DNA from: an uncultured bacterium
Lineage (GTDB): Bacteria; Desulfobacterota; GWC2-55-46
DNA length: 64,000 nt
Assembly (NCBI GenBank): GCA_905339405.1
Contig: CAJPGC010000039.1
Location: 15,000-78,999 of the forward strand
Direction of reading: 5' to 3'
Both the position numbers and the translations under genes were made by a program. Shown piece after piece: positions 1,292 to 8,611 of the stretch. Position 1 is the stretch's first letter. Every line of letters starts with the position of its first letter. Under the pieces are notes generated by a model, which saw nothing but the letters and a program-made list of their open reading frames with translations, ran no database searches and was not told the origin of the DNA.

Positions 1292-2590
1292 TTAAGCCAT
1301 GCCGATATCCTTCTTCGCGAACTTCTCTGCGCAATCCGGGCAGATGCAGTGGGTGAATTCGGCACCGGTACGCTCGTGCAGGAACTTCTCGAGGCCTTCC
1401 CAGGAGCCCTTGTCGTTCCTTATTTTCTTACAGTAGGCGCATATTGGCAGGAGGCCGCTTGAAAAATTCACGTTGGCCGGCTCAGCCCGCTTGCGCCCGG
1501 TCATATCGACGACTATTCCGCGGAGGCCCGTTACGCGGCCGTCAAGGGAGCGCTTGACGCCTCCGCGCGCGATGACCCATCTTCCTGAACCAGCCAGTTC
1601 GAGGTCGAGCTCATAAGGCTGCCCCGTCTCGAGGCTCTTTTTCACAGCCTCACCGAGCTCTTTCGCGCTTCCGGGGACATATACCCTCAAGTGCTCCTCG
1701 AACCTCTCCGGAGGCATACCCGGGTCAAGGCCCAAAAGGCGGCAGGCCCCGACTGACCATGCTGCCCTGCCTGATTCCACGTCCAACTCCCAGCTACCGG
1801 TCCGGCCTATTCTCTCTATTTCTCCGGCCTCCTGCTCCATCCTGCCGATGGTATCCTCCGAGAGATTGTTGAGAGACTCGAGGCGCTCCCGTTCGAGTAT
1901 GTTGTAAAGGAGCCTGCTGACCTCGAGGTAGCCCTGGTTTGGAAGGAGCATCTCCTCGGGGGAGGTATAATAGAAGTTCCTGCAGACCTGCCCCCTGTAG
2001 ATGACCAGCGGGTGGGTCCGTATGACGTCCATGATTATCTCGGGGCTGAACCGCCCGATATTGTATTGGCAGATCGCGAGCGCGTCGTTTTCAGGGAAGA
2101 AATAATTGAGCTTCGATTCGTACTCAATGAGCCTGTCTGAGCCCGGGTCTCCGCCGAGCATCCATGTCATCTCGCCAGTCACGCGAAGGCCCGTGTACCC
2201 GTCGGACTTTGCGGCATCGGCCGCGTCCTTGAGGAAACCTATCATCCAGTCCGGGTCGAAATATCCCTGCTTGAGGTAGGCTTCCTTCTTGCTTATGACG
2301 CTCAAGGCCCCTTTGGCGAGAGCGGCCTTGATGTCGACACCGCCTTTTTCCATCCGCTCGAGGACCTCGCCGGAGGTGTTTTCGTCGGCGACATACACGC
2401 ACCTCTCGCCGCGCTCGAGGCCGATGCGCACGAATGGGACTACGGCGGCGAACTGCTCTTCAGGTGTCTCGTAGATAAGACAGAGGTGGTCGTGAAAACC
2501 AAGCCCTTCGACGGCCTTCAAAAGACCCTTGTAGCGCGGATACTCGCCGGAGGAGCTATCCCTTCTACTGTCTATGGCCATGAGCCGCAC
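1292..2590 (-). CDS. MEDS-domain plus PAS-domain sensor protein with a C-terminal Cys/His-rich (zinc-ribbon-like) motif
   Basis: N-terminus (HDHLCLIYETPEEQ...) matches the MEDS sensory domain. The centre looks like a PAS fold. The C-terminus LPICAYCKKIRNDKGSWE...HCICPDC carries a CxxC..HxxCxxC metal-binding-like motif. Confidence 0.55.
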   Translation of the reverse strand: MRLMAIDSRRDSSSGEYPRYKGLLKAVEGLGFHDHLCLIYETPEEQFAAVVPFVRIGLERGERCVYVADENTSGEVLERMEKGGVDIKAALAKGALSVISKKEAYLKQGYFDPDWMIGFLKDAADAAKSDGYTGLRVTGEMTWMLGGDPGSDRLIEYESKLNYFFPENDALAICQYNIGRFSPEIIMDVIRTHPLVIYRGQVCRNFYYTSPEEMLLPNQGYLEVSRLLYNILERERLESLNNLSEDTIGRMEQEAGEIERIGRTGSWELDVESGRAAWSVGACRLLGLDPGMPPERFEEHLRVYVPGSAKELGEAVKKSLETGQPYELDLELAGSGRWVIARGGVKRSLDGRVTGLRGIVVDMTGRKRAEPANVNFSSGLLPICAYCKKIRNDKGSWEGLEKFLHERTGAEFTHCICPDCAEKFAKKDIGMA

Positions 2591-2721
2591 CCCTTTCAGT
2601 TCTCATTATATCATCTGCTGATATTTTGAAAAAAGGAAAGAAATGCGCAGTTACTTTTCCAAAACTGGTTCCACATTAAATCTATTGTGCTTAGAACTGT
2701 ATTCTAAGCCTATCCCCATGG

Positions 2722-3579
2722 TCAAGACAAAAAAGATGGCTGTATATGGTGTAGAAGAGCCTGCCTTGGTTTTGTCTTTGTCTCTGAGTCTTTCCTGATA
2801 TTTCTTTCCTTGAAGTAAACATCCTGAGGCGTCCGGTAGTCGAGGGCCTGATGGAGCCTCTCCGTGTTGTAGAAGTGAAAGTACCTGGCAAGGGACTCTC
2901 TGGCCTCTTTGACGGTCTCGTAGCTCTTAAGGTAGACTTCTTCGTACTTGACCGTCCTCCAGAGCCTCTCAACGAAGATGTTGTCCATTGCTCTGCCCCT
3001 GCCGTCCATGCTGATGGCGACCCCGAGTTTTTCAAGCCGCTCCGTGAACTCAACGCTCGTGAACTGACTTCCCTGGTCGGAGTTGAAGATGTCCGGGCTG
3101 GAAAGAGAAAGCGCCCTTTCCAGTGCCCTTATGCAGAACTCCGCATCCAGCGTCGTCGAGACCTCCCAGGAGAGCACATAGCGGCTGTGCCAGTCCATTA
3201 TGGCCACGAGGTAGATAAAGCCGCCCTTGAGCCGTATATACGTTATGTCCGTTGACCACACGTGGTCAGGGCGCTCTATGACGACGTCCTTCAGGAGATA
3301 CGGATACTTCTTATGGTCCTTGGCTGGCTTTGAGAGCCACGGCTTCGGATATACGGCCTCCAGCCCCAGGATCTTCATCAGACGCCTTACCCTCTTGCGG
3401 TTTACCATGTAGCCCCGGGTCCTGAGCCACTCCGTCATCTTCGGCACGCCGTAGAAGGGTGTCTTCGTATACTGCTCGTCCAGGAGCGTCATAAGGGCCT
3501 CGTTGAGCTCGTTCCGCTCCCTTGCCCTGTAATAGTAAGCCGCCTTAGAGAGGCCAAGAAGCCGGCACTGGCGCGACAC
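2722..3579 (-). CDS. IS3-family transposase OrfB (DDE integrase core, rve); probably expressed as an OrfAB fusion by a -1 frameshift, so the true frame extends upstream to the A9 site near 3650
   Basis: Motifs DITYIRLKGGFIYLVAIMDWHSRYVLSWEV ... NSDQGSQFTS ... ERLWRTVKYEEVY are the canonical rve/IS3 OrfB signature. Confidence 0.85.
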   Translation of the reverse strand: MSRQCRLLGLSKAAYYYRARERNELNEALMTLLDEQYTKTPFYGVPKMTEWLRTRGYMVNRKRVRRLMKILGLEAVYPKPWLSKPAKDHKKYPYLLKDVVIERPDHVWSTDITYIRLKGGFIYLVAIMDWHSRYVLSWEVSTTLDAEFCIRALERALSLSSPDIFNSDQGSQFTSVEFTERLEKLGVAISMDGRGRAMDNIFVERLWRTVKYEEVYLKSYETVKEARESLARYFHFYNTERLHQALDYRTPQDVYFKERNIRKDSETKTKPRQALLHHIQPSFLS

Positions 3580-3619
3580 AGGTATCTCAGAATTCCTTGG
3601 CTCTATTAAGGCTTTCTTC

Positions 3620-3904
3620 TCACTTGCCGAGGAGCTGAGATTTTTTTTTAAGCCAGTCCAGCTCCACCTTGAGCTGCCCTATTTGCCGGTAAAGCTCATC
3701 TGTCTCCGCCGCGTCTTCTTTTTGTTCCTTTCGCCGCCTGTCAGAGAAAAGGCCGGGGAGGTCCTCCAGAAGCCGCTTCTTCCACTGGCCGATCTGGTTT
3801 GGATGTACCCCGTACTCGCTCGCGATCTGGGCTATCGTTTTCTCGCCCTTGACCGCCTCAAGCGCCACCTTAGCCTTGAACGCCGCATCATGATTCTTCT
3901 TCAT
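3620..3904 (-). CDS. IS3-family transposase OrfA (HTH DNA-binding)
   Basis: 94 aa. IAQIASEYGVHPNQIGQWKKRL is an HTH and a leucine-zipper-like C-terminus follows. The final codons LKKKSQ are encoded by the A9 slippery sequence. Confidence 0.85.
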   Translation of the reverse strand: MKKNHDAAFKAKVALEAVKGEKTIAQIASEYGVHPNQIGQWKKRLLEDLPGLFSDRRRKEQKEDAAETDELYRQIGQLKVELDWLKKKSQLLGK

Positions 3905-3926
3905 TCTGCCTGCCTCCTGACCGTTA

Positions 3927-6605
3927 TTAGCAGGCTACCATACACCAAATACCTTTGTCTAAATTTTGGGGAGTATTATATTCAATTATTTTAATTTTCA
4001 TATGATTACCAAGTTCTAAAGAATAGATGTTCAATCCTAGGTGTGACAATTTTGCGATATAAATGAATCCGACAGCAGCTACGCCAAACTCCACAAAAAC
4101 GCCATAATTTTGAATAGAAATTATTTCACCTTCAATAATTGTTCCCGGAGGATAATCATTTATCAATTTTTCTTCTGCATTCAAATTGGTATGTGATTTT
4201 GCTCTTTCTAAATTTAAAAGTGCCGCAGAAATATCAAACAACTTCTCAAAATGTCCATCCTCCAAATATGCCTCCGGCCTAGAAATAAACTCTGCCCTAT
4301 AACTCTGCAAATATTTTGTTAAATCTTCGGCATTCAAGATACTTGTCTCTTGAGAAAAATGACCCTTGCCTGTTTGATTTGTCATTCTTTTCCAAATCCT
4401 ATCAGCCACTTCGCTGTTCTTATACCAAACATCCTCCGAACAAGCAGCCAAATAATCAATATTATTAACCAAGTCTAGATGAACGTGACCTGCCGGAGAA
4501 ATTGACACCAAATCACCCTCATTAATCTGATCAAGATCTTGGGTTTCAGAAACTACAGCCCCAAATTTCAGTAATTGAGCGAGCTCAATTTGTACTTTGT
4601 CAATGGAATGACCTAAAGACACCATATCTGAGCAAAGATCTATAATTTTATGATATCCTTTTATGCCGCTCGGGCCAAACTTTCTATATCTTTTTTCTAG
4701 CCACTGTAAAATCTCTAATCTAATAAAGGGATCAGGTATAATGTCTTCAGGATAAGAAAGAAATAAATTTTTTACTGACGATCCTGCATCCTGAAAATAT
4801 CTCCTATTTCCACGAAGAATGAGTCTCATTATTATGTGTTTTGGCAACGTATAATCACCTTGCGACTGCCTTATCTTTAGAATTTCATCTGGCGTAATAT
4901 GTCCACTTTTACAGAATTCAAGAAAAATTTCCAGCCCTCTCCTTATATCTCGGCCTGAAATTCCAGTTACAATTCTCCTAAAAAGGCTATCTGTAAAAAG
5001 TGATCTCAAGATGCAAGCCAAATAAATACCCTGCTCAGACCGTGGGTACTCAACTCTCATACCATTAGGGAGCACATAGCTTAATAGTTCCTCATCTTTT
5101 TGTTCTCCTCTCTTCTTATTCATCGTAGCCAAAGCAAAACCAATTCGTTTTGCTATTACCTGTGCTAACAATGGTGGGTCGATCCTGAATACTAAATCCT
5201 TTATTACTGTATCAAGTGGCGGTTCCTTACGGTGATGATCAAATGTGGTATCGCGTATTGGTAGAACCACTAAGCACTCAAACTCATTCTGCATCCACTT
5301 TGCGACTTCAAACATCAATAGCTGATCATCCCTTTTCCTTCTGTCACAATTATCCAGAACTACTACTGCCAATTTGCCTCTGTCTCGACACAGATATCTA
5401 ATATAAGCTTTCAAAGAATGTATTGGATTATTAAGGAGGCTTTGTAGTTCTGACGCAATGAGGTTTTTATATTCTACAGTACAAGGGTCAAATATTGCTG
5501 CCGGCCCTTTCTCAATTTTACGCAGTTCAACAGAATATAACTTTCTAAGTGTATTAAGTTCTTCGAAGTCAATATCAGAATACAATTCCTTAAATTTCGC
5601 CATTAGGCTTTCACAAAGCCATTTATAAATTTCCTCTTTGGACAAAGGGGCCTTATTTAAATCAACAGAAAGCCACACTGTTTTATCTTTTATTTCCCGG
5701 TGCAACGCAACTTCTGTTAAATAATCTATAAAGGTAGATTTTCCACTACCAACTCCACCCACTAATAGTAATATTTCATTTTTTAGACTCCAAAGGTTTT
5801 TAAATTTATCGGTTAGTTCTATTGGTCGTCCAGTATCCTGAATTTCTTTTATGCTAGACATTGTTAAAGGTATTGCCGATTTAATTATTCTTTCTATAGG
5901 GCTTACATGGCTTATTCTCTTTTTTGTAGTCACATAAGCATTTTTAACAACATTTTTTCTCTCATCTAATGTGCTCGGATTGAAAAGATAACGGTAATCT
6001 AGTGCTAATGTTGCACCAAAACTGTTTTGTTCTAATTCTTCATTTTGGACTGCTCGACCACCCAACATATTAATCGGTCTTTTAAATGTGGTGCCGCTTC
6101 TTAGAGAATTTAGTTTTGAATTTATAAAATCTGTCAATATTCTTTTTGACCCAAATTCAAGCAATCTAGAATACTTTTCACCTCCTACAAATATTTCATC
6201 AAAGAAAAGACTTACTTGCTCCTCTACGCTATCAGAAAAAGTTGCTACTATTTTCTTGCCATTAGTGGTTAAAATCTTTTGACAGGGGTTTATGTTATGC
6301 GGGAATTTTGCATTTAATTCTTGCGCATACAATCTAGCTTCTGTGCATGCACTTTCCAGTTCCACACTTGGATGTTTAACCTCGATTATCAAAACAGGCA
6401 ATCCTTGAATAAGTATTACATAATCCGGATAGTATAATTTTGAGCTTTTACCCTTTCCAATTACCAACTGTCTTAAATCAACTTTCGTTCTGAATTCAGA
6501 AGTACTGAACCCAAACCCCAGCGGATCAGGCGCAATAAGCATTTGGATAACAAACTTTTGTTCAACATCGCTTTCATTTAATAAATCTTCTATTTTACAA
6601 AACAT
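3927..6605 (-). CDS. Large island protein (892 aa): N-terminal HsdR-N-type PD-(D/E)xK nuclease-like domain, central P-loop NTPase (Walker A GGVGSGKST, Walker B VVVLDNCD, about 130 aa apart, STAND/KAP-like), helical middle region, C-terminal S1/OB-fold domain; the 3' end is overlapped by the IS3 terminus
   Basis: N-terminus SDVEQKFVIQMLI..LGF...YPDYVILIQGLPVLIIEVKHP fits the type I restriction HsdR N-terminal (HSDR_N) PD-(D/E)xK pattern. LLLVGGVGSGKSTFIDYL and LAVVVLDNCD are the P-loop motifs. C-terminus GTIIEGEIISIQNYGVFVEFGVAAVGFIYIAKLS...MKIKIIEY..LDKG fits the S1 pattern G.V.G.V..I..FGAFV..G..GL.HIS. The locus has a strong RBS (GGGAGGG) and is AT-rich throughout. Confidence 0.7.
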   Translation of the reverse strand: MFCKIEDLLNESDVEQKFVIQMLIAPDPLGFGFSTSEFRTKVDLRQLVIGKGKSSKLYYPDYVILIQGLPVLIIEVKHPSVELESACTEARLYAQELNAKFPHNINPCQKILTTNGKKIVATFSDSVEEQVSLFFDEIFVGGEKYSRLLEFGSKRILTDFINSKLNSLRSGTTFKRPINMLGGRAVQNEELEQNSFGATLALDYRYLFNPSTLDERKNVVKNAYVTTKKRISHVSPIERIIKSAIPLTMSSIKEIQDTGRPIELTDKFKNLWSLKNEILLLVGGVGSGKSTFIDYLTEVALHREIKDKTVWLSVDLNKAPLSKEEIYKWLCESLMAKFKELYSDIDFEELNTLRKLYSVELRKIEKGPAAIFDPCTVEYKNLIASELQSLLNNPIHSLKAYIRYLCRDRGKLAVVVLDNCDRRKRDDQLLMFEVAKWMQNEFECLVVLPIRDTTFDHHRKEPPLDTVIKDLVFRIDPPLLAQVIAKRIGFALATMNKKRGEQKDEELLSYVLPNGMRVEYPRSEQGIYLACILRSLFTDSLFRRIVTGISGRDIRRGLEIFLEFCKSGHITPDEILKIRQSQGDYTLPKHIIMRLILRGNRRYFQDAGSSVKNLFLSYPEDIIPDPFIRLEILQWLEKRYRKFGPSGIKGYHKIIDLCSDMVSLGHSIDKVQIELAQLLKFGAVVSETQDLDQINEGDLVSISPAGHVHLDLVNNIDYLAACSEDVWYKNSEVADRIWKRMTNQTGKGHFSQETSILNAEDLTKYLQSYRAEFISRPEAYLEDGHFEKLFDISAALLNLERAKSHTNLNAEEKLINDYPPGTIIEGEIISIQNYGVFVEFGVAAVGFIYIAKLSHLGLNIYSLELGNHMKIKIIEYNTPQNLDKGIWCMVAC

Positions 6606-6624
6606 CTTTTTTCCCTCCCATTAG

Positions 6625-6660
6625 AGAATTTAACAGAAAATAACATTTTTTCAAACAAAA
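6625..6660 (-). promoter_or_regulatory. Putative sigma-70-type promoter for the island gene (minus strand TTGAAA-N16-TAAATT), followed by RBS GGGAGGG 7 nt upstream of the ATG
   Basis: Read from the reverse complement of 6606-6680. The hexamer spacing fits the consensus. No experimental support. Confidence 0.3.
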
Positions 6661-6911
6661 AGGTTGACAGGCGGTCTAACACATCAATGCTGCGTAATGC
6701 AGTTTAATAACAACTGGAACATAAATAAAATTGTCTATCCAGCCCACGAGAATACCGCTGTTTTTTTGTGTTTTTGGATATTACATTATAATCAAGTGTG
6801 GACATTCACACAGTTTCAATGCTTCTGAGTCATACGGTATACTCACCACTACTGAATTAGATCAATGTAAGGGTACTGGAAAAAGGGTTAGCACAAATTT
6901 TTCAGCTAAAT

Positions 6912-6944
6912 AAAAAAGGGACCTGCCTTCCGGCGGTCCCTTTT
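6912..6944. terminator. Rho-independent terminator hairpin GGGACC-TGCCTTCCGGC-GGTCCC with flanking A6 and T4 runs (works on either strand)
   Basis: Hairpin and U-tracts read directly. It lies between tRNA-Pro and the island gene promoter. Confidence 0.5.
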
Positions 6945-7093
6945 ACTTGGTCAGTTCGAGGCGGCACCGGTCGTCGGCTCCCGCCTCCTCCCTCTGGCCG
7001 CGGGCCGGCTCGCTTCCGGCCTGCCTCCCGGCAGGCCTCTTCCTCGCGCTGCTCGGCGCTCGCCGTCTTTCGAATCCTGCCATTTACCAATAT

Positions 7094-7130
7094 AAAAAAA
7101 GGGGGCAGCCTGAAGGCTGTCCCCTTTTTA
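7094..7130. terminator. Rho-independent terminator for tRNA-Pro (minus-strand reading GGGGACAGCC-TTCA-GGCTGCCCCC then T7)
   Basis: Perfect 10-bp GC-rich stem, 4-nt loop, T-run immediately 3' of the tRNA on the minus strand. Confidence 0.65.
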
Positions 7131-7134
7131 TTAT

Positions 7135-7212
7135 TTGGTCGGGGCGAGAGGATTCGAACCTCCGGCCCCCGCGTCCCGAACGCGGTGCTCTACCAGACTG
7201 AGCCACGCCCCG
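7135..7212 (-). tRNA. tRNA-Pro (anticodon CGG), CCA encoded
   Basis: Minus strand reads CGGGGCG-TG-GCTC-AGTCTGGT-AGAGC-A-CCGCG-TTCGGGA-CGCGG-GGGCC-GGAGG-TTCGAAT-CCTCT-CGCCCCG-A-CCA. All four stems pair and the anticodon loop is UU-CGG-GA. Closely similar to E. coli tRNA-Pro. Confidence 0.85.
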
Positions 7213-7381
7213 ACTGTCAACTGAATCAACTGCTTGCGTCTCAGGAAAACGCCTTGGAATCACATTTCCCGGTGTTTCGCCGTAACCTGCCGCGCCCGCA
7301 AAAACCTGCATTTGAAGCGGTGAGTCCTTTTTAATAACATATCTCTACAGCCTACGCAAGAGATTCTATGAATTTCTATGC

Positions 7382-8611
7382 TCAGCTGCTCAGGACCCGG
7401 CCCACCCTGTTGTCCTCGTCTACCGCGTCCCTCAGGAAGTCGAGCACCCCGGGTATGCCCGCGCTCACCCTCCTCCAGCTCGGTATGAGAGGCGTTCCCA
7501 TCGGGTTTTCCAGCACTGCAGCGGCCCCCTTGTGAATCGCCCTTATGAACGCCTCCACGGCCTTTGCCTCGCCGTGCCTATCGTAAACTAGCCCGTTTAT
7601 CGCGGCGTCGGCCTCGTATTTGACCATCGTGTCCTCGGCGAGCCTCAGGTAGCCCACTTCAAGGGACTTGAAAAAGTTGTCCGAGAACACCACGCCCTCT
7701 GCCGCGAGGACCCTGAATATGGACTTTGAGATGTCCACGCACATCTTCATGAGCCCCCTGCTCTCGTCCTCTGGGGAGAGATCCTGGTGCTTGTGCTCGT
7801 AATTGTCGGTTATGTCCACCTGACAGACCCTTTTCGCCGAATAGTTCCTGAAGACCTCCGAAAGAACGCCTACCTCGAGCCCCCAGTCCCAGGGGATACG
7901 GTTGACCCAGGCGAGGTCGGTTATCATGCAGAACTCCCCGGAAAGAGGGTACCTGAAATCATCGAGGAACGAGAGGAAGTCGTGGCCGCCCACCAGCTTC
8001 TGCAGGGCCCTCACGAGCGGAGTTATGAGGAGCCTTGTGACCCTCCCGTGCATCCTGTCTGTCACCCTGCTGTAAAAGCCTTTGCAGAACACCACGTCTA
8101 TGTTGGGGTTCATCACGGGATAGCACAGGCGCGCGAGCATCTCCCTGTTATAGTTCACGATGTCGCAGTCGTGGAGGGCTATGACGTCCGAGCGCCCGGA
8201 AGCTATCGTGTACCCGTAGGCGAGCCAGGCCGAACGCCCCTTGCCGTCCTCGCCAGCCCACAACCCGTAGTCTTCGAGCGTCGAGTAGAGCGCCTTTATC
8301 CTCTTGCCTTCGTTATGTATTATCTTGACGTCGTAGGGGATGTCGGACATGAACTTCATCGCTTTTTCGAACTCCTCGTCCGAAGCCCGGCCCAGAGAAA
8401 GAACTATCTCCTTTATGTACCTGACTCTCTTGAGCTCCTCTACTATGCCGCGGAGCGCGTCTGCCTCGAACTCTGAGTAAAGCGCGGGCAGGACCAGGGT
8501 TGCAGGCCTGCTCTTGGAAAAACCGGCCAGCTCGTGCTCTATCCTGTCGAGCCCGTCGCCGCCCAACCTGTGCAGCGTCGTTATGACGTCAGTCTGGTAA
8601 AAATCCGACAT
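7382..8611 (-). CDS. Glucosyl-3-phosphoglycerate synthase-like glycosyltransferase (GT81/GpgS family) with a C-terminal extension
   Basis: Recalled alignment to mycobacterial GpgS: VLPAL near the N-terminus, GKGRSAWLAYGY (GKG.A.W), DVIALHDCD (the DxD-type SDL motif region), and KGFYSRV...GRVTRL...PLSGEF (KSFYRRP..GGRVTEL..PLSGEY). Confidence 0.55.
   Translation of the reverse strand: MSDFYQTDVITTLHRLGGDGLDRIEHELAGFSKSRPATLVLPALYSEFEADALRGIVEELKRVRYIKEIVLSLGRASDEEFEKAMKFMSDIPYDVKIIHNEGKRIKALYSTLEDYGLWAGEDGKGRSAWLAYGYTIASGRSDVIALHDCDIVNYNREMLARLCYPVMNPNIDVVFCKGFYSRVTDRMHGRVTRLLITPLVRALQKLVGGHDFLSFLDDFRYPLSGEFCMITDLAWVNRIPWDWGLEVGVLSEVFRNYSAKRVCQVDITDNYEHKHQDLSPEDESRGLMKMCVDISKSIFRVLAAEGVVFSDNFFKSLEVGYLRLAEDTMVKYEADAAINGLVYDRHGEAKAVEAFIRAIHKGAAAVLENPMGTPLIPSWRRVSAGIPGVLDFLRDAVDEDNRVGRVLSS

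What the first reader, a model, noticed from the sequence alone, without database searches (positions are those of the whole stretch)
3927..6605. Candidate single-gene defence system: HsdR-N-type PD-(D/E)xK nuclease domain, STAND/KAP-like P-loop NTPase, and a C-terminal S1/OB-fold
The only cargo gene of the island encodes 892 aa in three parts. First, an N-terminal HSDR_N-like PD-(D/E)xK module (YPDYVILIQGLPVLIIEVKHP), the kind used as the effector nuclease in many antiphage proteins. Second, a P-loop NTPase with Walker A LLLVGGVGSGKST and Walker B LAVVVLDNCD about 130 residues apart. That spacing is longer than in AAA+ and is typical of STAND/KAP NTPases. Third, a C-terminal S1-like OB fold (GTIIEGEIISIQNYGVFVEFG...GFIYI...MKIKIIEY..LDKG). 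Nuclease–NTPase–sensor is the logic of Avs/STAND immune proteins, but those use TPR-like C-terminal sensors that bind phage proteins. An S1 nucleic-acid-binding sensor in that position is, as far as I know, not described, and would suggest RNA or ssDNA sensing. Location in an AT-rich island at a tRNA, next to an IS, fits a defence-island context.
Basis: partly seen in the sequence, partly recalled or inferred. Interest (0 to 1): 0.85.

Follow-up and report, generated by a model that had tools for sequence, protein, structure and literature searches.

The report
IS-disrupted nuclease–ATPase–S1 defence candidate
The 892-codon gene is a real member of a large, widespread, unstudied family that fuses a restriction-type nuclease, an ORC/Cdc6-like ATPase switch and an RNA-binding S1 domain and often sits beside known anti-phage systems, but this copy has an insertion sequence inside its 3' end that cuts off the last strand of the S1 domain.

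Summary

The last 16 codons are IS sequence. The true end (SSKHNRFNVEPVLEK*) lies at 2651-2699, so S1 strand 5 is lost.

The family has at least 252 clusters at 50% identity across about a dozen phyla. It has no conserved partner in 87 loci. It lies on ICEs, plasmids and prophages, and next to type I R-M, Hma, SIR2-pAgo and Ppl genes. The C-terminal module varies: S1, RRM, cold-shock domain, or none. There is no PADLOC hit, and I found no paper describing it.

Best reading: a stand-alone, ATP-gated defence nuclease with a single-stranded nucleic-acid-binding module. It is a new variant of a known kind, it is untested experimentally, and this copy is probably impaired.

The parts
3979..6605 (-). 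Native part of the gene: codons 1-875 plus 2 nt of codon 876.
   Evidence: ORF list. 57% identity and 98% coverage to P0001, and more than 1000 homologues. Junction mapped.
6096..6605 (-). N-terminal HsdR-N-type PD-(D/E)xK nuclease domain (residues 1-170). Core motif Y58...P79 lies at 6369-6434, with D61, E75 and K77. E89xxxY93 follows in the next helix.
5796..6095 (-). Helical linker (residues 171-270).
   Evidence: Secondary structure of the AF2 model.
5172..5795 (-). AAA+ alpha/beta NTPase core (residues 271-478). Walker A is at 5733-5768, Walker B (LAVVVLDNCDRR) at 5337-5372, and the strand-4 end LPIRD (R451) at 5238-5276. An about 85-residue helical insert (323-405) lies between strand 2 and the Walker B strand.
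4161..5171 (-). Lid helical bundle, winged-helix domain(s) and a helical region (residues 479-815). Includes the invariant R487 and the GRDIRRGLEIF motif (R555, at 4920-4964), which resembles ORC/Cdc6 sensor-2.
3981..4160 (-). S1 OB-fold, strands 1-4 only (residues 816-875).
3927..3978 (-). IS-derived tail of the annotated ORF (NTPQNLDKGIWCMVAC plus stop). It is not part of the original protein.
   Evidence: It lies within the terminal inverted repeat of the IS. It does not align with homologue C-termini.
2705..3978 (-). IS3-family insertion sequence, 1274 bp, GC 53.5%. orfA is at 3620-3904 and orfB (rve) at 2722-3579. Single copy in the window.
   Evidence: Pfam HTH_Tnp_1 and rve/HTH_21 on the called genes. 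PHROG transposase hits. Inverted repeats. blastn of the IS against the window finds one copy.
3979..3983 (-). Target-site duplication, copy 1 (GAATA as read on the minus strand).
2700..2704 (-). Target-site duplication, copy 2 (GAATA).
2651..2699 (-). Displaced true 3' end of the gene (SSKHNRFNVEPVLEK plus stop). It encodes S1 strand 5 with the conserved H880, R882 and F883.
   Evidence: Frame-2 translation matches homologue ends such as ..HxRFxLKP. Reconstruction gives 891 aa. Column conservation. Strand E882-887 in the model.
6614..6654 (-). Shine-Dalgarno GGGAGG (6614-6619) and a promoter-like site TTGAAA-16-TAAATT (6627-6654).
   Evidence: Sequence. Consensus scan only, which is not evidence of function.
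2600..6905 (.). AT-rich islet (about 35% GC apart from the IS) in a genome of about 58% GC. Its only cargo is this gene.
   Evidence: Composition. ORF list.
7136..7212 (-). tRNA-Pro(CGG), about 230 bp from the islet edge. Two terminator-like hairpins (7096-7129 and about 6912-6945) and a GC-rich spacer lie in between.
   Evidence: ARAGORN. Rfam 65.8 bits. Sequence and scan.

Best explanation
The gene is an IS-disrupted copy of a widespread, horizontally mobile, stand-alone nuclease-ATPase family. The family most likely defends cells or their mobile elements against invading nucleic acids.

Anatomy (shown):
- an HsdR-type PD-(D/E)xK nuclease with an intact active site;
- an ORC/Cdc6-like AAA+ ATPase at the ORC/STAND boundary, with intact Walker A and B, a strand-4 arginine and a sensor-2-like arginine;
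- a lid and winged-helix domain(s);
- a C-terminal single-stranded nucleic-acid-binding module that is S1 here and RRM, cold-shock domain or absent in relatives.

Mechanism (inferred):
1. The fast-evolving C-terminal half (winged helix plus S1) engages an invader-derived nucleic acid. Candidates are single-stranded RNA, single-stranded DNA or a single-strand/duplex junction.
2. ATP binding by the AAA+ module then drives a conformational switch or oligomerisation, as in ORC/Cdc6, RdrA and STAND proteins.
3. This brings the N-terminal nuclease domains together, and they cut DNA.
4. The result is either direct restriction of the invader or growth arrest of the infected cell.

In this window, the IS3-family insertion removes S1 strand 5 with its conserved H/R/F residues. 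This copy is therefore probably sensor-defective or inactive.
For: - Domains and catalytic residues.
- RdrA, a defence ATPase solved in an 'RNA-loading state', is among the best NTPase matches.
- No conserved neighbour in 87 loci.
- Patchy spread over about 12 phyla, with 167 species genomes confirmed, and an AT-rich foreign islet here.
- MGE locations: a P. syringae ICE; a Prim-Pol/integrase island; a Desulfocapsa plasmid; ICE-like RadC/DUF932/SSB contexts; phrog_14719 at E 1.4e-129; a Rac-type prophage moron position in 8 E. coli genomes.
- Defence genes directly adjacent: type I R-M (L002, L081, L072, L039); Ppl and PDC-S18 (L039); SIR2-pAgo (L070); embedded between HmaA and HmaB with a separate HmaC (L069, L071)..
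- The 137 immediate neighbours hit 396 PADLOC models, against 15 for 137 distal genes of the same loci.
- C-terminal module swapping: 31 of 54 representatives have S1 and 2 have RRM (one carries two RRMs), plus one cold-shock-domain relative.
- Identity falls along the protein: nuclease 0.36, NTPase 0.40, winged helix 0.26, S1 0.20.
- IS insertion and loss of strand 5.
Against: - No experiment exists for any member. The defence role rests on guilt by association.
- The PADLOC model count is inflated, because one methyltransferase or specificity subunit can hit 25-100 redundant models.
- By Pfam, only about 10-15% of immediate neighbours are clearly defence or MGE genes, and many are housekeeping.
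- In this window and in Bdellovibrio the neighbours are ordinary genes.
- The S1 module is absent from a whole branch, so it cannot be the universal trigger sensor.
- Generic S1, RRM and cold-shock folds bind single strands without sequence specificity, which makes self/non-self discrimination unexplained.
- Oligomerisation, the nuclease substrate and the trigger are all unobserved.
- No member was found in deposited phage genomes or in BFVD.
Confidence: 0.55

Rival explanations
1. It is a direct-acting, ATP-dependent restriction-like enzyme of Type IV, McrBC or CoCoNuT style, not a ligand-gated switch. The AAA+ module and winged helices load onto nucleic acid. S1, RRM or the cold-shock domain holds the substrate itself (RNA or single-stranded DNA, for example entering conjugative or replicating phage DNA). 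The nuclease then cuts that bound substrate.
For: - ORC/Cdc6-type ATPases with an insert after strand 2 and a C-terminal winged helix are nucleic-acid loaders. These are the best structural matches.
- In RNase E, PNPase, RNase R and RNase II, S1 domains bind substrate (established knowledge; PNPase and RNase R appear among the S1 hits).
- CoCoNuTs set a precedent of cold-shock-domain OB folds in an NTPase-nuclease system predicted to target RNA (PMC11090510).
- Members are embedded in R-M-like operons. The BREX paper lists 'REase coupled to CR-ATPases' as auxiliary restriction factors (PMC12839542).
Against: - HsdR-type nuclease domains are known as double-stranded DNA cutters (established knowledge of type I R-M).
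- The short forms lack any single-strand-binding module yet keep everything else.
- No modification-reading domain (SRA, EVE/YTH, PUA) was detected.
Confidence: 0.2
2. It serves the mobile element that carries it rather than the host against phages. Possible roles are exclusion or destruction of competing plasmids or ICEs, or an addiction-like stabilisation function.
For: It is located inside ICEs near transfer or leading-region genes (RadC, DUF932, SSB, TraG), and between rep and parA on a plasmid. Integrases are the commonest immediate-neighbour Pfam family, at 5 of 137.
Against: - Many copies are chromosomal with no MGE genes nearby.
- Adjacency to classical anti-phage systems is at least as frequent.
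- No antitoxin-like partner is conserved.
Confidence: 0.1
3. It is a housekeeping RNA-processing or ribosome-associated nuclease, as the public names 'ribosomal protein S1' and 'S1 RNA-binding domain-containing protein' suggest.
For: The S1 domain resembles ribosomal S1 repeats. Some records carry such names.
Against: - The distribution is patchy: 167 of about 185,000 species genomes matched by the patterns used, and 8 of 5,426 E. coli genomes for the short form.
- It has foreign base composition and sits on MGEs, prophages and in defence neighbourhoods.
- It is tolerated when disrupted by an IS here.
- No NCBIfam equivalog model reaches its curated cut-off; only far sub-threshold partial hits, mostly to the S1 domain.
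Confidence: 0.03
4. It is a remnant or domesticated transposition module: a TnsA-like endonuclease fused to a TniB/TnsC-like AAA+ regulator.
For: AAA_22, the family of TniB-type ATPases, is the best ATPase Pfam hit. There is a weak profile hit to TnsC. According to the Aravind group's classification, basal STAND/CR-ATPases derive from transposon ATPases (PMC8195603).
Against: - The nuclease is HsdR-N type, not TnsA.
- No transposase or other transposition gene is conserved next to it in 87 loci.
- No terminal repeats flank the AT-rich islet.
Confidence: 0.02

Closest known systems
Avs / AVAST antiviral STAND proteins (e.g. Avs3, Avs4)
   Different: No NACHT, NB-ARC or Avs HMM hit. ORC/Cdc6 structures match as well or better. 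There is no TPR-like repeat sensor. The C-terminus is instead a small generic single-strand-binding fold (S1, RRM or cold-shock domain), or is absent. Avs sensors bind phage proteins (established knowledge; PMC11564622 abstract).
RdrA of the RADAR system
   Different: RdrA works with a separate deaminase, RdrB, and has no fused nuclease or S1 domain. There is no sequence-level relationship.
BrxC / HmaC (DUF499) ORC/Cdc6-type ATPases of BREX and Hma (BREX-related) systems
   Different: BrxC and HmaC are larger, lack a nuclease and belong to multi-gene methylation-based systems. The family member in L071 is a separate gene from HmaC and hits no PADLOC model.
HsdR subunit of type I restriction-modification enzymes
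   Different: No SF2 helicase/translocase motor was detected. HsdM/S partners occur in only a minority of loci: an HsdM-like cluster in 6 of 87. The NCBI name 'type I restriction endonuclease' is therefore a domain-based misnomer.
CoCoNuT (coiled-coil nuclease tandem) McrBC-type systems
   Same: A nucleotide-hydrolysing motor, a PD-(D/E)xK nuclease and cold-shock-type OB folds, interpreted as RNA or single-stranded DNA engagement in defence (PMC11090510).
   Different: CoCoNuTs are multi-gene McrB-GTPase/McrC systems with coiled coils and often HEPN RNases. Here the system is one chain with an ORC/Cdc6-like ATPase and an HsdR-type nuclease.
'PD-(D/E)xK REase fused to CR-ATPase' auxiliary effectors noted beside BREX/BR loci
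   Same: This is a REase-plus-basal-STAND/transposase-like ATPase fusion embedded in BREX-related (Hma) loci (PMC12839542; CR-ATPase defined in PMC8195603). It fits what I see in L069 and L071.
   Different: I could not verify that those proteins are this family. The supplements held no matching text, and Zhang et al. 2016 is not held. No S1, RRM or cold-shock fusion is mentioned in the text I could read.

Membership tests
STAND NTPases (NACHT / NB-ARC / Avs) | Sequence match to a NACHT, NB-ARC or other STAND profile. | tested here: not met
   No such Pfam family at E <= 10 for the window protein. No Avs or bNACHT model in PADLOC. Only a sub-threshold nSTAND_NTPase5 hit (19.4 bits against 34) in the distant K. 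aerogenes relative.
STAND NTPases (NACHT / NB-ARC / Avs) | Nucleotide-binding domain, helical domain and winged-helix module resembling Apaf-1/NLR. | tested here: inconclusive
STAND NTPases (NACHT / NB-ARC / Avs) | C-terminal superstructure-forming repeat sensor (TPR, LRR or WD40). | tested here: not met
   The model shows a lid, wHTH, a short helical region and S1. There are no repeat Pfam hits.
STAND NTPases (NACHT / NB-ARC / Avs) | Ligand-induced, nucleotide-dependent oligomerisation that activates the effector. | not testable with these tools
   This needs biochemistry or cryo-EM.
KAP family P-loop NTPases | Match to the KAP_NTPase profile. | tested here: inconclusive
   20.5 bits against a cut-off of 20.0, which is weaker than AAA_22 on the same residues.
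KAP family P-loop NTPases | Transmembrane helices inserted within the P-loop domain (typical of the family; from established knowledge). | tested here: not met
   The insert at 323-405 is made of charged, soluble helices in the sequence and the model.
ORC/Cdc6-type AAA+ ATPases | AAA+ core plus lid plus C-terminal winged helix, structurally similar to Orc/Cdc6. | tested here: met
Type I R-M HsdR | HSDR_N PD-(D/E)xK nuclease domain. | tested here: met
Type I R-M HsdR | SF2 helicase/translocase motor (ResIII/DEAD plus Helicase_C). | tested here: not met
   Absent from the Pfam scan. TIGR00348 hsdR scores 15.6 bits against a cut-off of 284.
Type I R-M HsdR | Obligate HsdM and HsdS partners in the same operon. 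| tested here: not met
   None in the window. An HsdM-like neighbour cluster occurs in only 6 of 87 loci.
S1 RNA-binding domain (OB fold) | Match to the S1 profile and the five-stranded barrel fold. | tested here: met
S1 RNA-binding domain (OB fold) | Complete barrel in the protein actually encoded in this window. | tested here: not met
   The IS junction after Y876 removes strand 5 (882-887) with H880, R882 and F883.
Known anti-phage systems (PADLOC-DB v2.0.0) | Significant hit to any system's protein model. | tested here: not met
   Best E 0.007, from P-loop-only matches. There is also none for the short forms L071, L081 and L022. Systems described after 2023 could not be screened by HMM.
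IS3-family insertion sequence | HTH orfA plus DDE (rve) orfB, terminal inverted repeats and a short target duplication. | tested here: met
   The canonical -1 orfA-orfB fusion was not reproduced.

The most novel reading that the evidence does not exclude
The family is a new class of ORC/STAND-like immune receptor that senses invader nucleic acid directly rather than a phage protein. It would do so through interchangeable generic single-strand binders (S1, RRM or cold-shock domain) and respond by ATP-dependent assembly of an HsdR-type nuclease. That would make it a bacterial, single-chain analogue of nucleic-acid-sensing innate immune receptors.
Probability: 0.25. Interest if true: 0.75.

Novelty: new variant of a known kind. 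Interest (0 to 1): 0.55.

Why it matters
If the family is confirmed as a defence system, three things follow.
- It would add a broadly distributed single-gene system that current defence-finding HMM sets miss. It covers about a dozen phyla, including CPR bacteria, Melainabacteria and Spirochaetes, and it is present in E. coli Rac-type prophages and P. syringae ICEs.
- It would show an ORC/Cdc6-STAND-type switch coupled to RNA- or ssDNA-binding modules rather than protein-sensing repeats. That makes the question of how a generic single-strand binder discriminates invader from self directly testable.
- It would correct misleading public names such as 'type I restriction endonuclease', 'ribosomal protein S1' and 'EcfA2'.

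For this window the practical message is narrower. The annotated 892-aa protein is a chimera created by an IS insertion, so it should not be used as the reference sequence.

Tried and rejected
- att-type direct repeats between the tRNA side and the far side of the islet: none of 9 bp or more. There is no integrase, so a classical tRNA-integrated island is not supported.
- A canonical IS3 -1 frameshift at the A9 run gives a stop after 5 codons. orfB is in the +1 frame relative to orfA.
- NCBIfam: no family-level model reaches its cut-off.
- tblastn against 50,697 phage records found no match. BFVD fold search gave only generic AAA+ and S1 hits.
- Rfam on 2400-7400 found only the tRNA.
- HmaC identity for the Hma-embedded members is rejected: a separate 1114-aa HmaC is present, and the member has no PADLOC hit.
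- The transposon-module reading is rejected, because no transposase is conserved nearby.
- The afdb50 fold library was unavailable.
- Zhang et al. 2016 on CR-ATPases is not held. The BREX-paper supplements contain no searchable 'CR-ATPase' text.
- Literature searches by architecture terms and by eleven accession or identifier strings found no description of the family.
- I first read the 396-versus-15 PADLOC model contrast as a very strong enrichment. I then down-weighted it, after seeing that single methyltransferase, specificity or helicase proteins hit 25-100 redundant models and that Pfam shows many housekeeping neighbours.
Full report
**1. What is in the sequence**

The minus-strand ORF at 3927..6605 (892 aa) exists. 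It is preceded by GGGAGG 8 nt upstream of its ATG. It lies in a stretch of about 33-40% GC (about 2600-6905) within DNA of about 54-62% GC. tRNA-Pro(CGG) is at 7136-7212 on the same strand.

Pfam places four families above their gathering scores:
- HSDR_N: residues 54-119, 36.9 bits against 25.1
- AAA_22: residues 277-424, 28.0 against 27
- KAP_NTPase: residues 280-437, 20.5 against 20
- S1: residues 820-854, 25.4 against 22

**2.

The IS3-type element has orfA at 3620-3904 and orfB/rve at 2722-3579. It has imperfect terminal inverted repeats that reach 2705 and 3978, and it is flanked by a 5-bp direct repeat GAATA at 3979-3983 and 2700-2704.

The last 16 codons of the annotated ORF (NTPQNLDKGIWCMVAC) are IS sequence. 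On the far side of the IS, at 2651-2699, the same strand encodes SSKHNRFNVEPVLEK*. This matches the C-termini of homologues, which read ..H.RF.LKP... Deleting the IS and one repeat copy restores an 891-aa ORF and raises the S1 score to 29.7 bits.

In the structural model the junction, after Y876, falls between S1 strands 4 and 5. The displaced piece carries H880 (86% conserved), R/K882 (89%) and F883 (88%). The protein encoded here therefore has an incomplete OB barrel. The same chimeric ORF is on record in two assemblies, as CAG1066465.1 and in GCA_030834745.1. I could not check reads.

The AT-rich stretch has no integrase and no att-like repeat. It is separated from the tRNA by two terminator-like hairpins and a GC-rich spacer. 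It is a one-gene foreign islet, not a classical tRNA-integrated island.

**3. The family**

A word-indexed search returned 1097 hits. The best 120 are almost all 880-920 aa, 42-57% identical over 98% of the query, with HSDR_N and S1 precomputed. An exhaustive search of 1.84 billion representatives gave 252 clusters (at 50% identity) with E <= 1e-30 and 964 with E <= 1e-10.

A pattern scan of one genome per species confirmed 167 species. The 80 retrieved loci come from the following groups:
- Alpha-, Beta- and Gammaproteobacteria
- Syntrophaceae and 'delta proteobacterium' MAGs
- Bacteroidota
- Clostridia
- Acidobacteriota
- Planctomycetota
- Verrucomicrobiota
- Spirochaetes
- Cyanobacteria and Melainabacteria
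- Parcubacteria and Saccharibacteria
- Trueperaceae
- Nitrospirota

Public names are domain-derived and inconsistent: 'type I restriction endonuclease', 'S1 RNA-binding domain-containing protein', 'ribosomal protein S1' and 'EcfA2'.

In 89 diverse relatives the invariant residues are K51, D61, Y93, N98, N194, G283, G286, G288, K289, D418, N419, D421, T454, R487, R555 and Y718. E11, D13, E15, E75, K77, R451 and the PPLD motif are at least 90% conserved. Both enzymatic centres are therefore under selection.

**4. Structure**

Foldseek ranks ORC2/Cdc6 and RdrA rings first, including an RNA-loading state. No solved chain shares the overall architecture: the best TM-score normalised to the query is 0.24. 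A family profile finds only S1 proteins significantly among PDB sequences.

The following rests on my own inspection of the sequence:
- Walker B is hhhhDNCD[KR].
- Strand 4 ends in an invariant Arg (LPxRD), as in STAND sensor-1.
- GRDIRRGLEIF (R555) resembles the ORC/Cdc6 sensor-2 motif GDxRxAL. The E. coli relative has AAGDIRNAL there.
- The long Walker A-B spacing is due to an about 85-residue soluble helical insert after strand 2. This is the position of the initiator-specific insert in ORC/Cdc6. It is not due to KAP-type membrane helices.

I therefore call the ATPase ORC/Cdc6-like, at the ORC/STAND boundary. NACHT, NB-ARC, Avs and KAP membership is not demonstrated.

**5. The C-terminal module is swappable and fast-evolving**

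Of 54 long-form representatives, 31 match S1 and 2 match RRM_1. One of the RRM forms, P0130, carries two RRMs. P0076, at 44% identity, has RRM in place of S1. A distant plasmid relative (QIE43292.1, 957 aa) has HSDR_N_2, the ATPase and a C-terminal cold-shock domain.

A branch of about 810 aa, at 26-31% identity, lacks the module (34 of 88 full-length representatives). Some closer relatives of 809-828 aa lack it too.

Mean pairwise identity falls along the protein: nuclease 0.36, NTPase 0.40, lid 0.36, winged-helix/helical 0.26, S1 0.20. Three unrelated single-strand-binding folds in the same position argue that binding single-stranded RNA or DNA is the selected function. The existence of short forms argues that this function is modular and not indispensable.

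**6. Genomic context**

I clustered 1286 crudely called flanking ORFs from 87 loci. No family is present in more than 7 loci, and none has a fixed position, so there is no obligate partner.

Contexts are typically mobile:
- a P. syringae ICE, between UvrD and type IV secretion genes
- an integrase, resolvase and Prim-Pol island
- a 36.7-kb Desulfocapsa plasmid
- RadC/DUF932/SSB, IS110 and Fic surroundings
- HicAB nearby

phrog_14719 (function unknown) matches residues 5-783 at E 1.4e-129. In 8 of 5,426 complete E. coli genomes a short-form relative sits on the opposite strand between the replication genes and the nin region of a Rac-type prophage.

Known defence genes are often the direct neighbours:
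- type I R-M in L002, L081, L072 and L039
- Ppl and PDC-S18 in L039
- a SIR2-pAgo in L070
- in two Verrucomicrobia (L069, L071) the member lies between HmaA and HmaB, with a separate HmaC downstream

In aggregate, the 137 immediate neighbours hit 396 PADLOC models, against 15 for 137 genes at positions +/-8 and +/-9 of the same loci. This contrast overstates the effect, because single proteins hit many redundant models. By Pfam the immediate neighbours include 5 integrases, 3 N6_Mtase, 3 Fic, 2 HsdR, 2 DUF1156 and 2 AAA_21, alongside many housekeeping genes. I read this as a real but moderate association with defence and mobile DNA.

In the present window the neighbours are ordinary: a MEDS/PAS protein, a histidine kinase and an aminopeptidase.

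**7. Known or not**

The protein and its short forms hit no PADLOC v2 model beyond P-loop noise. No NCBIfam model reaches its cut-off. Full-text searches found no paper describing the architecture or citing eleven accession or identifier strings.

Two partial precedents exist:
- CoCoNuTs, where cold-shock OB folds fused to an McrB-type NTPase and nuclease were taken to predict RNA targeting (PMC11090510).
- A 2026 BREX survey that lists 'PD-(D/E)xK REases coupled to CR-ATPases' among auxiliary effectors embedded in BREX and BREX-related (Hma) loci (PMC12839542). This may include the short form, but I could not verify it.

**8. Interpretation**

The best-supported reading (confidence 0.55) is a stand-alone, ATP-gated defence nuclease. 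The active-site-intact HsdR-type nuclease is the effector. The ORC/Cdc6-STAND-like AAA+ module is the switch. The winged-helix and S1 half engages invader nucleic acid. This copy is impaired by the IS.

The domains, the conservation, the lack of a partner, the context and the IS insertion are shown. The ligand, oligomerisation, the substrate and the outcome are inferred.

The main rival (0.2) is a direct-acting restriction-like enzyme in which S1 holds the substrate. Lesser rivals are an MGE-competition role (0.1), housekeeping RNA metabolism (0.03) and a transposition remnant (0.02).

**9. Verdict**

The finding is a new variant of a known kind: a single-chain NTPase-nuclease defence candidate. 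It is of moderate to good interest at the family level, and less so for this particular disrupted copy.

Noticed in passing
window 2705-3978: The IS3-family element has orfB in the +1 frame relative to orfA. A -1 slip at its A9 run (near the end of orfA) runs into a stop after 5 codons, so the canonical IS3 OrfAB fusion is not evident. The cause may be a homopolymer sequencing error or a decayed IS. It is a single copy in the 64-kb window.
   Followed up: partly
window 6912-7129: Two terminator-like hairpins (7096-7129 and about 6912-6945) bracket a 150-bp spacer of about 80% GC between tRNA-Pro and the AT-rich islet. Rfam finds nothing there. Its origin is unexplained; it could be a remnant of an earlier junction or a small RNA.
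   Followed up: partly
L069 9971-12400 and L071 9971-12400: In two Verrucomicrobia genomes an 809-aa short-form member (no S1, no PADLOC hit) is inserted co-directionally between HmaA and HmaB, with 10-145 bp gaps and HmaC following. It may act as an embedded auxiliary effector of the Hma/BREX-related system.
   Followed up: partly
L093 9001-11451 (E. coli 789, WP_040091717.1); L009 5098-7548 (K. aerogenes): A distant 816-aa short-form relative annotated 'P-loop NTPase fold protein' occupies a moron-like position in Rac-type prophages of 8 E. coli genomes. In K. aerogenes it lies beside terminase and capsid gene remnants. This makes it an experimentally convenient entry point to the family.
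   Followed up: partly
P0130, P0076, P0149; L008 5098-7971: Family members have one or two RRM domains, and a plasmid relative has a cold-shock domain, in place of S1. Several Acidobacteriota loci (L019, L020, L030) encode longer proteins of 977-999 aa whose C-termini I did not characterise.
   Followed up: partly
L070 64-3084 and L039 7137-9869: A fused SIR2-pAgo (1007 aa) and a Ppl homologue (911 aa) lie immediately upstream of family members. L039 is a dense island: Ppl, the member, PDC-S18, and type I M and R genes.
   Followed up: no
public records of homologues: The same family is named 'type I restriction endonuclease', 'ribosomal protein S1', 'S1 RNA-binding domain-containing protein', 'cold shock CspA family protein' or 'energy-coupling factor transporter ATP-binding protein EcfA2' in different sources. 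All are single-domain-derived misnomers.
   Followed up: yes
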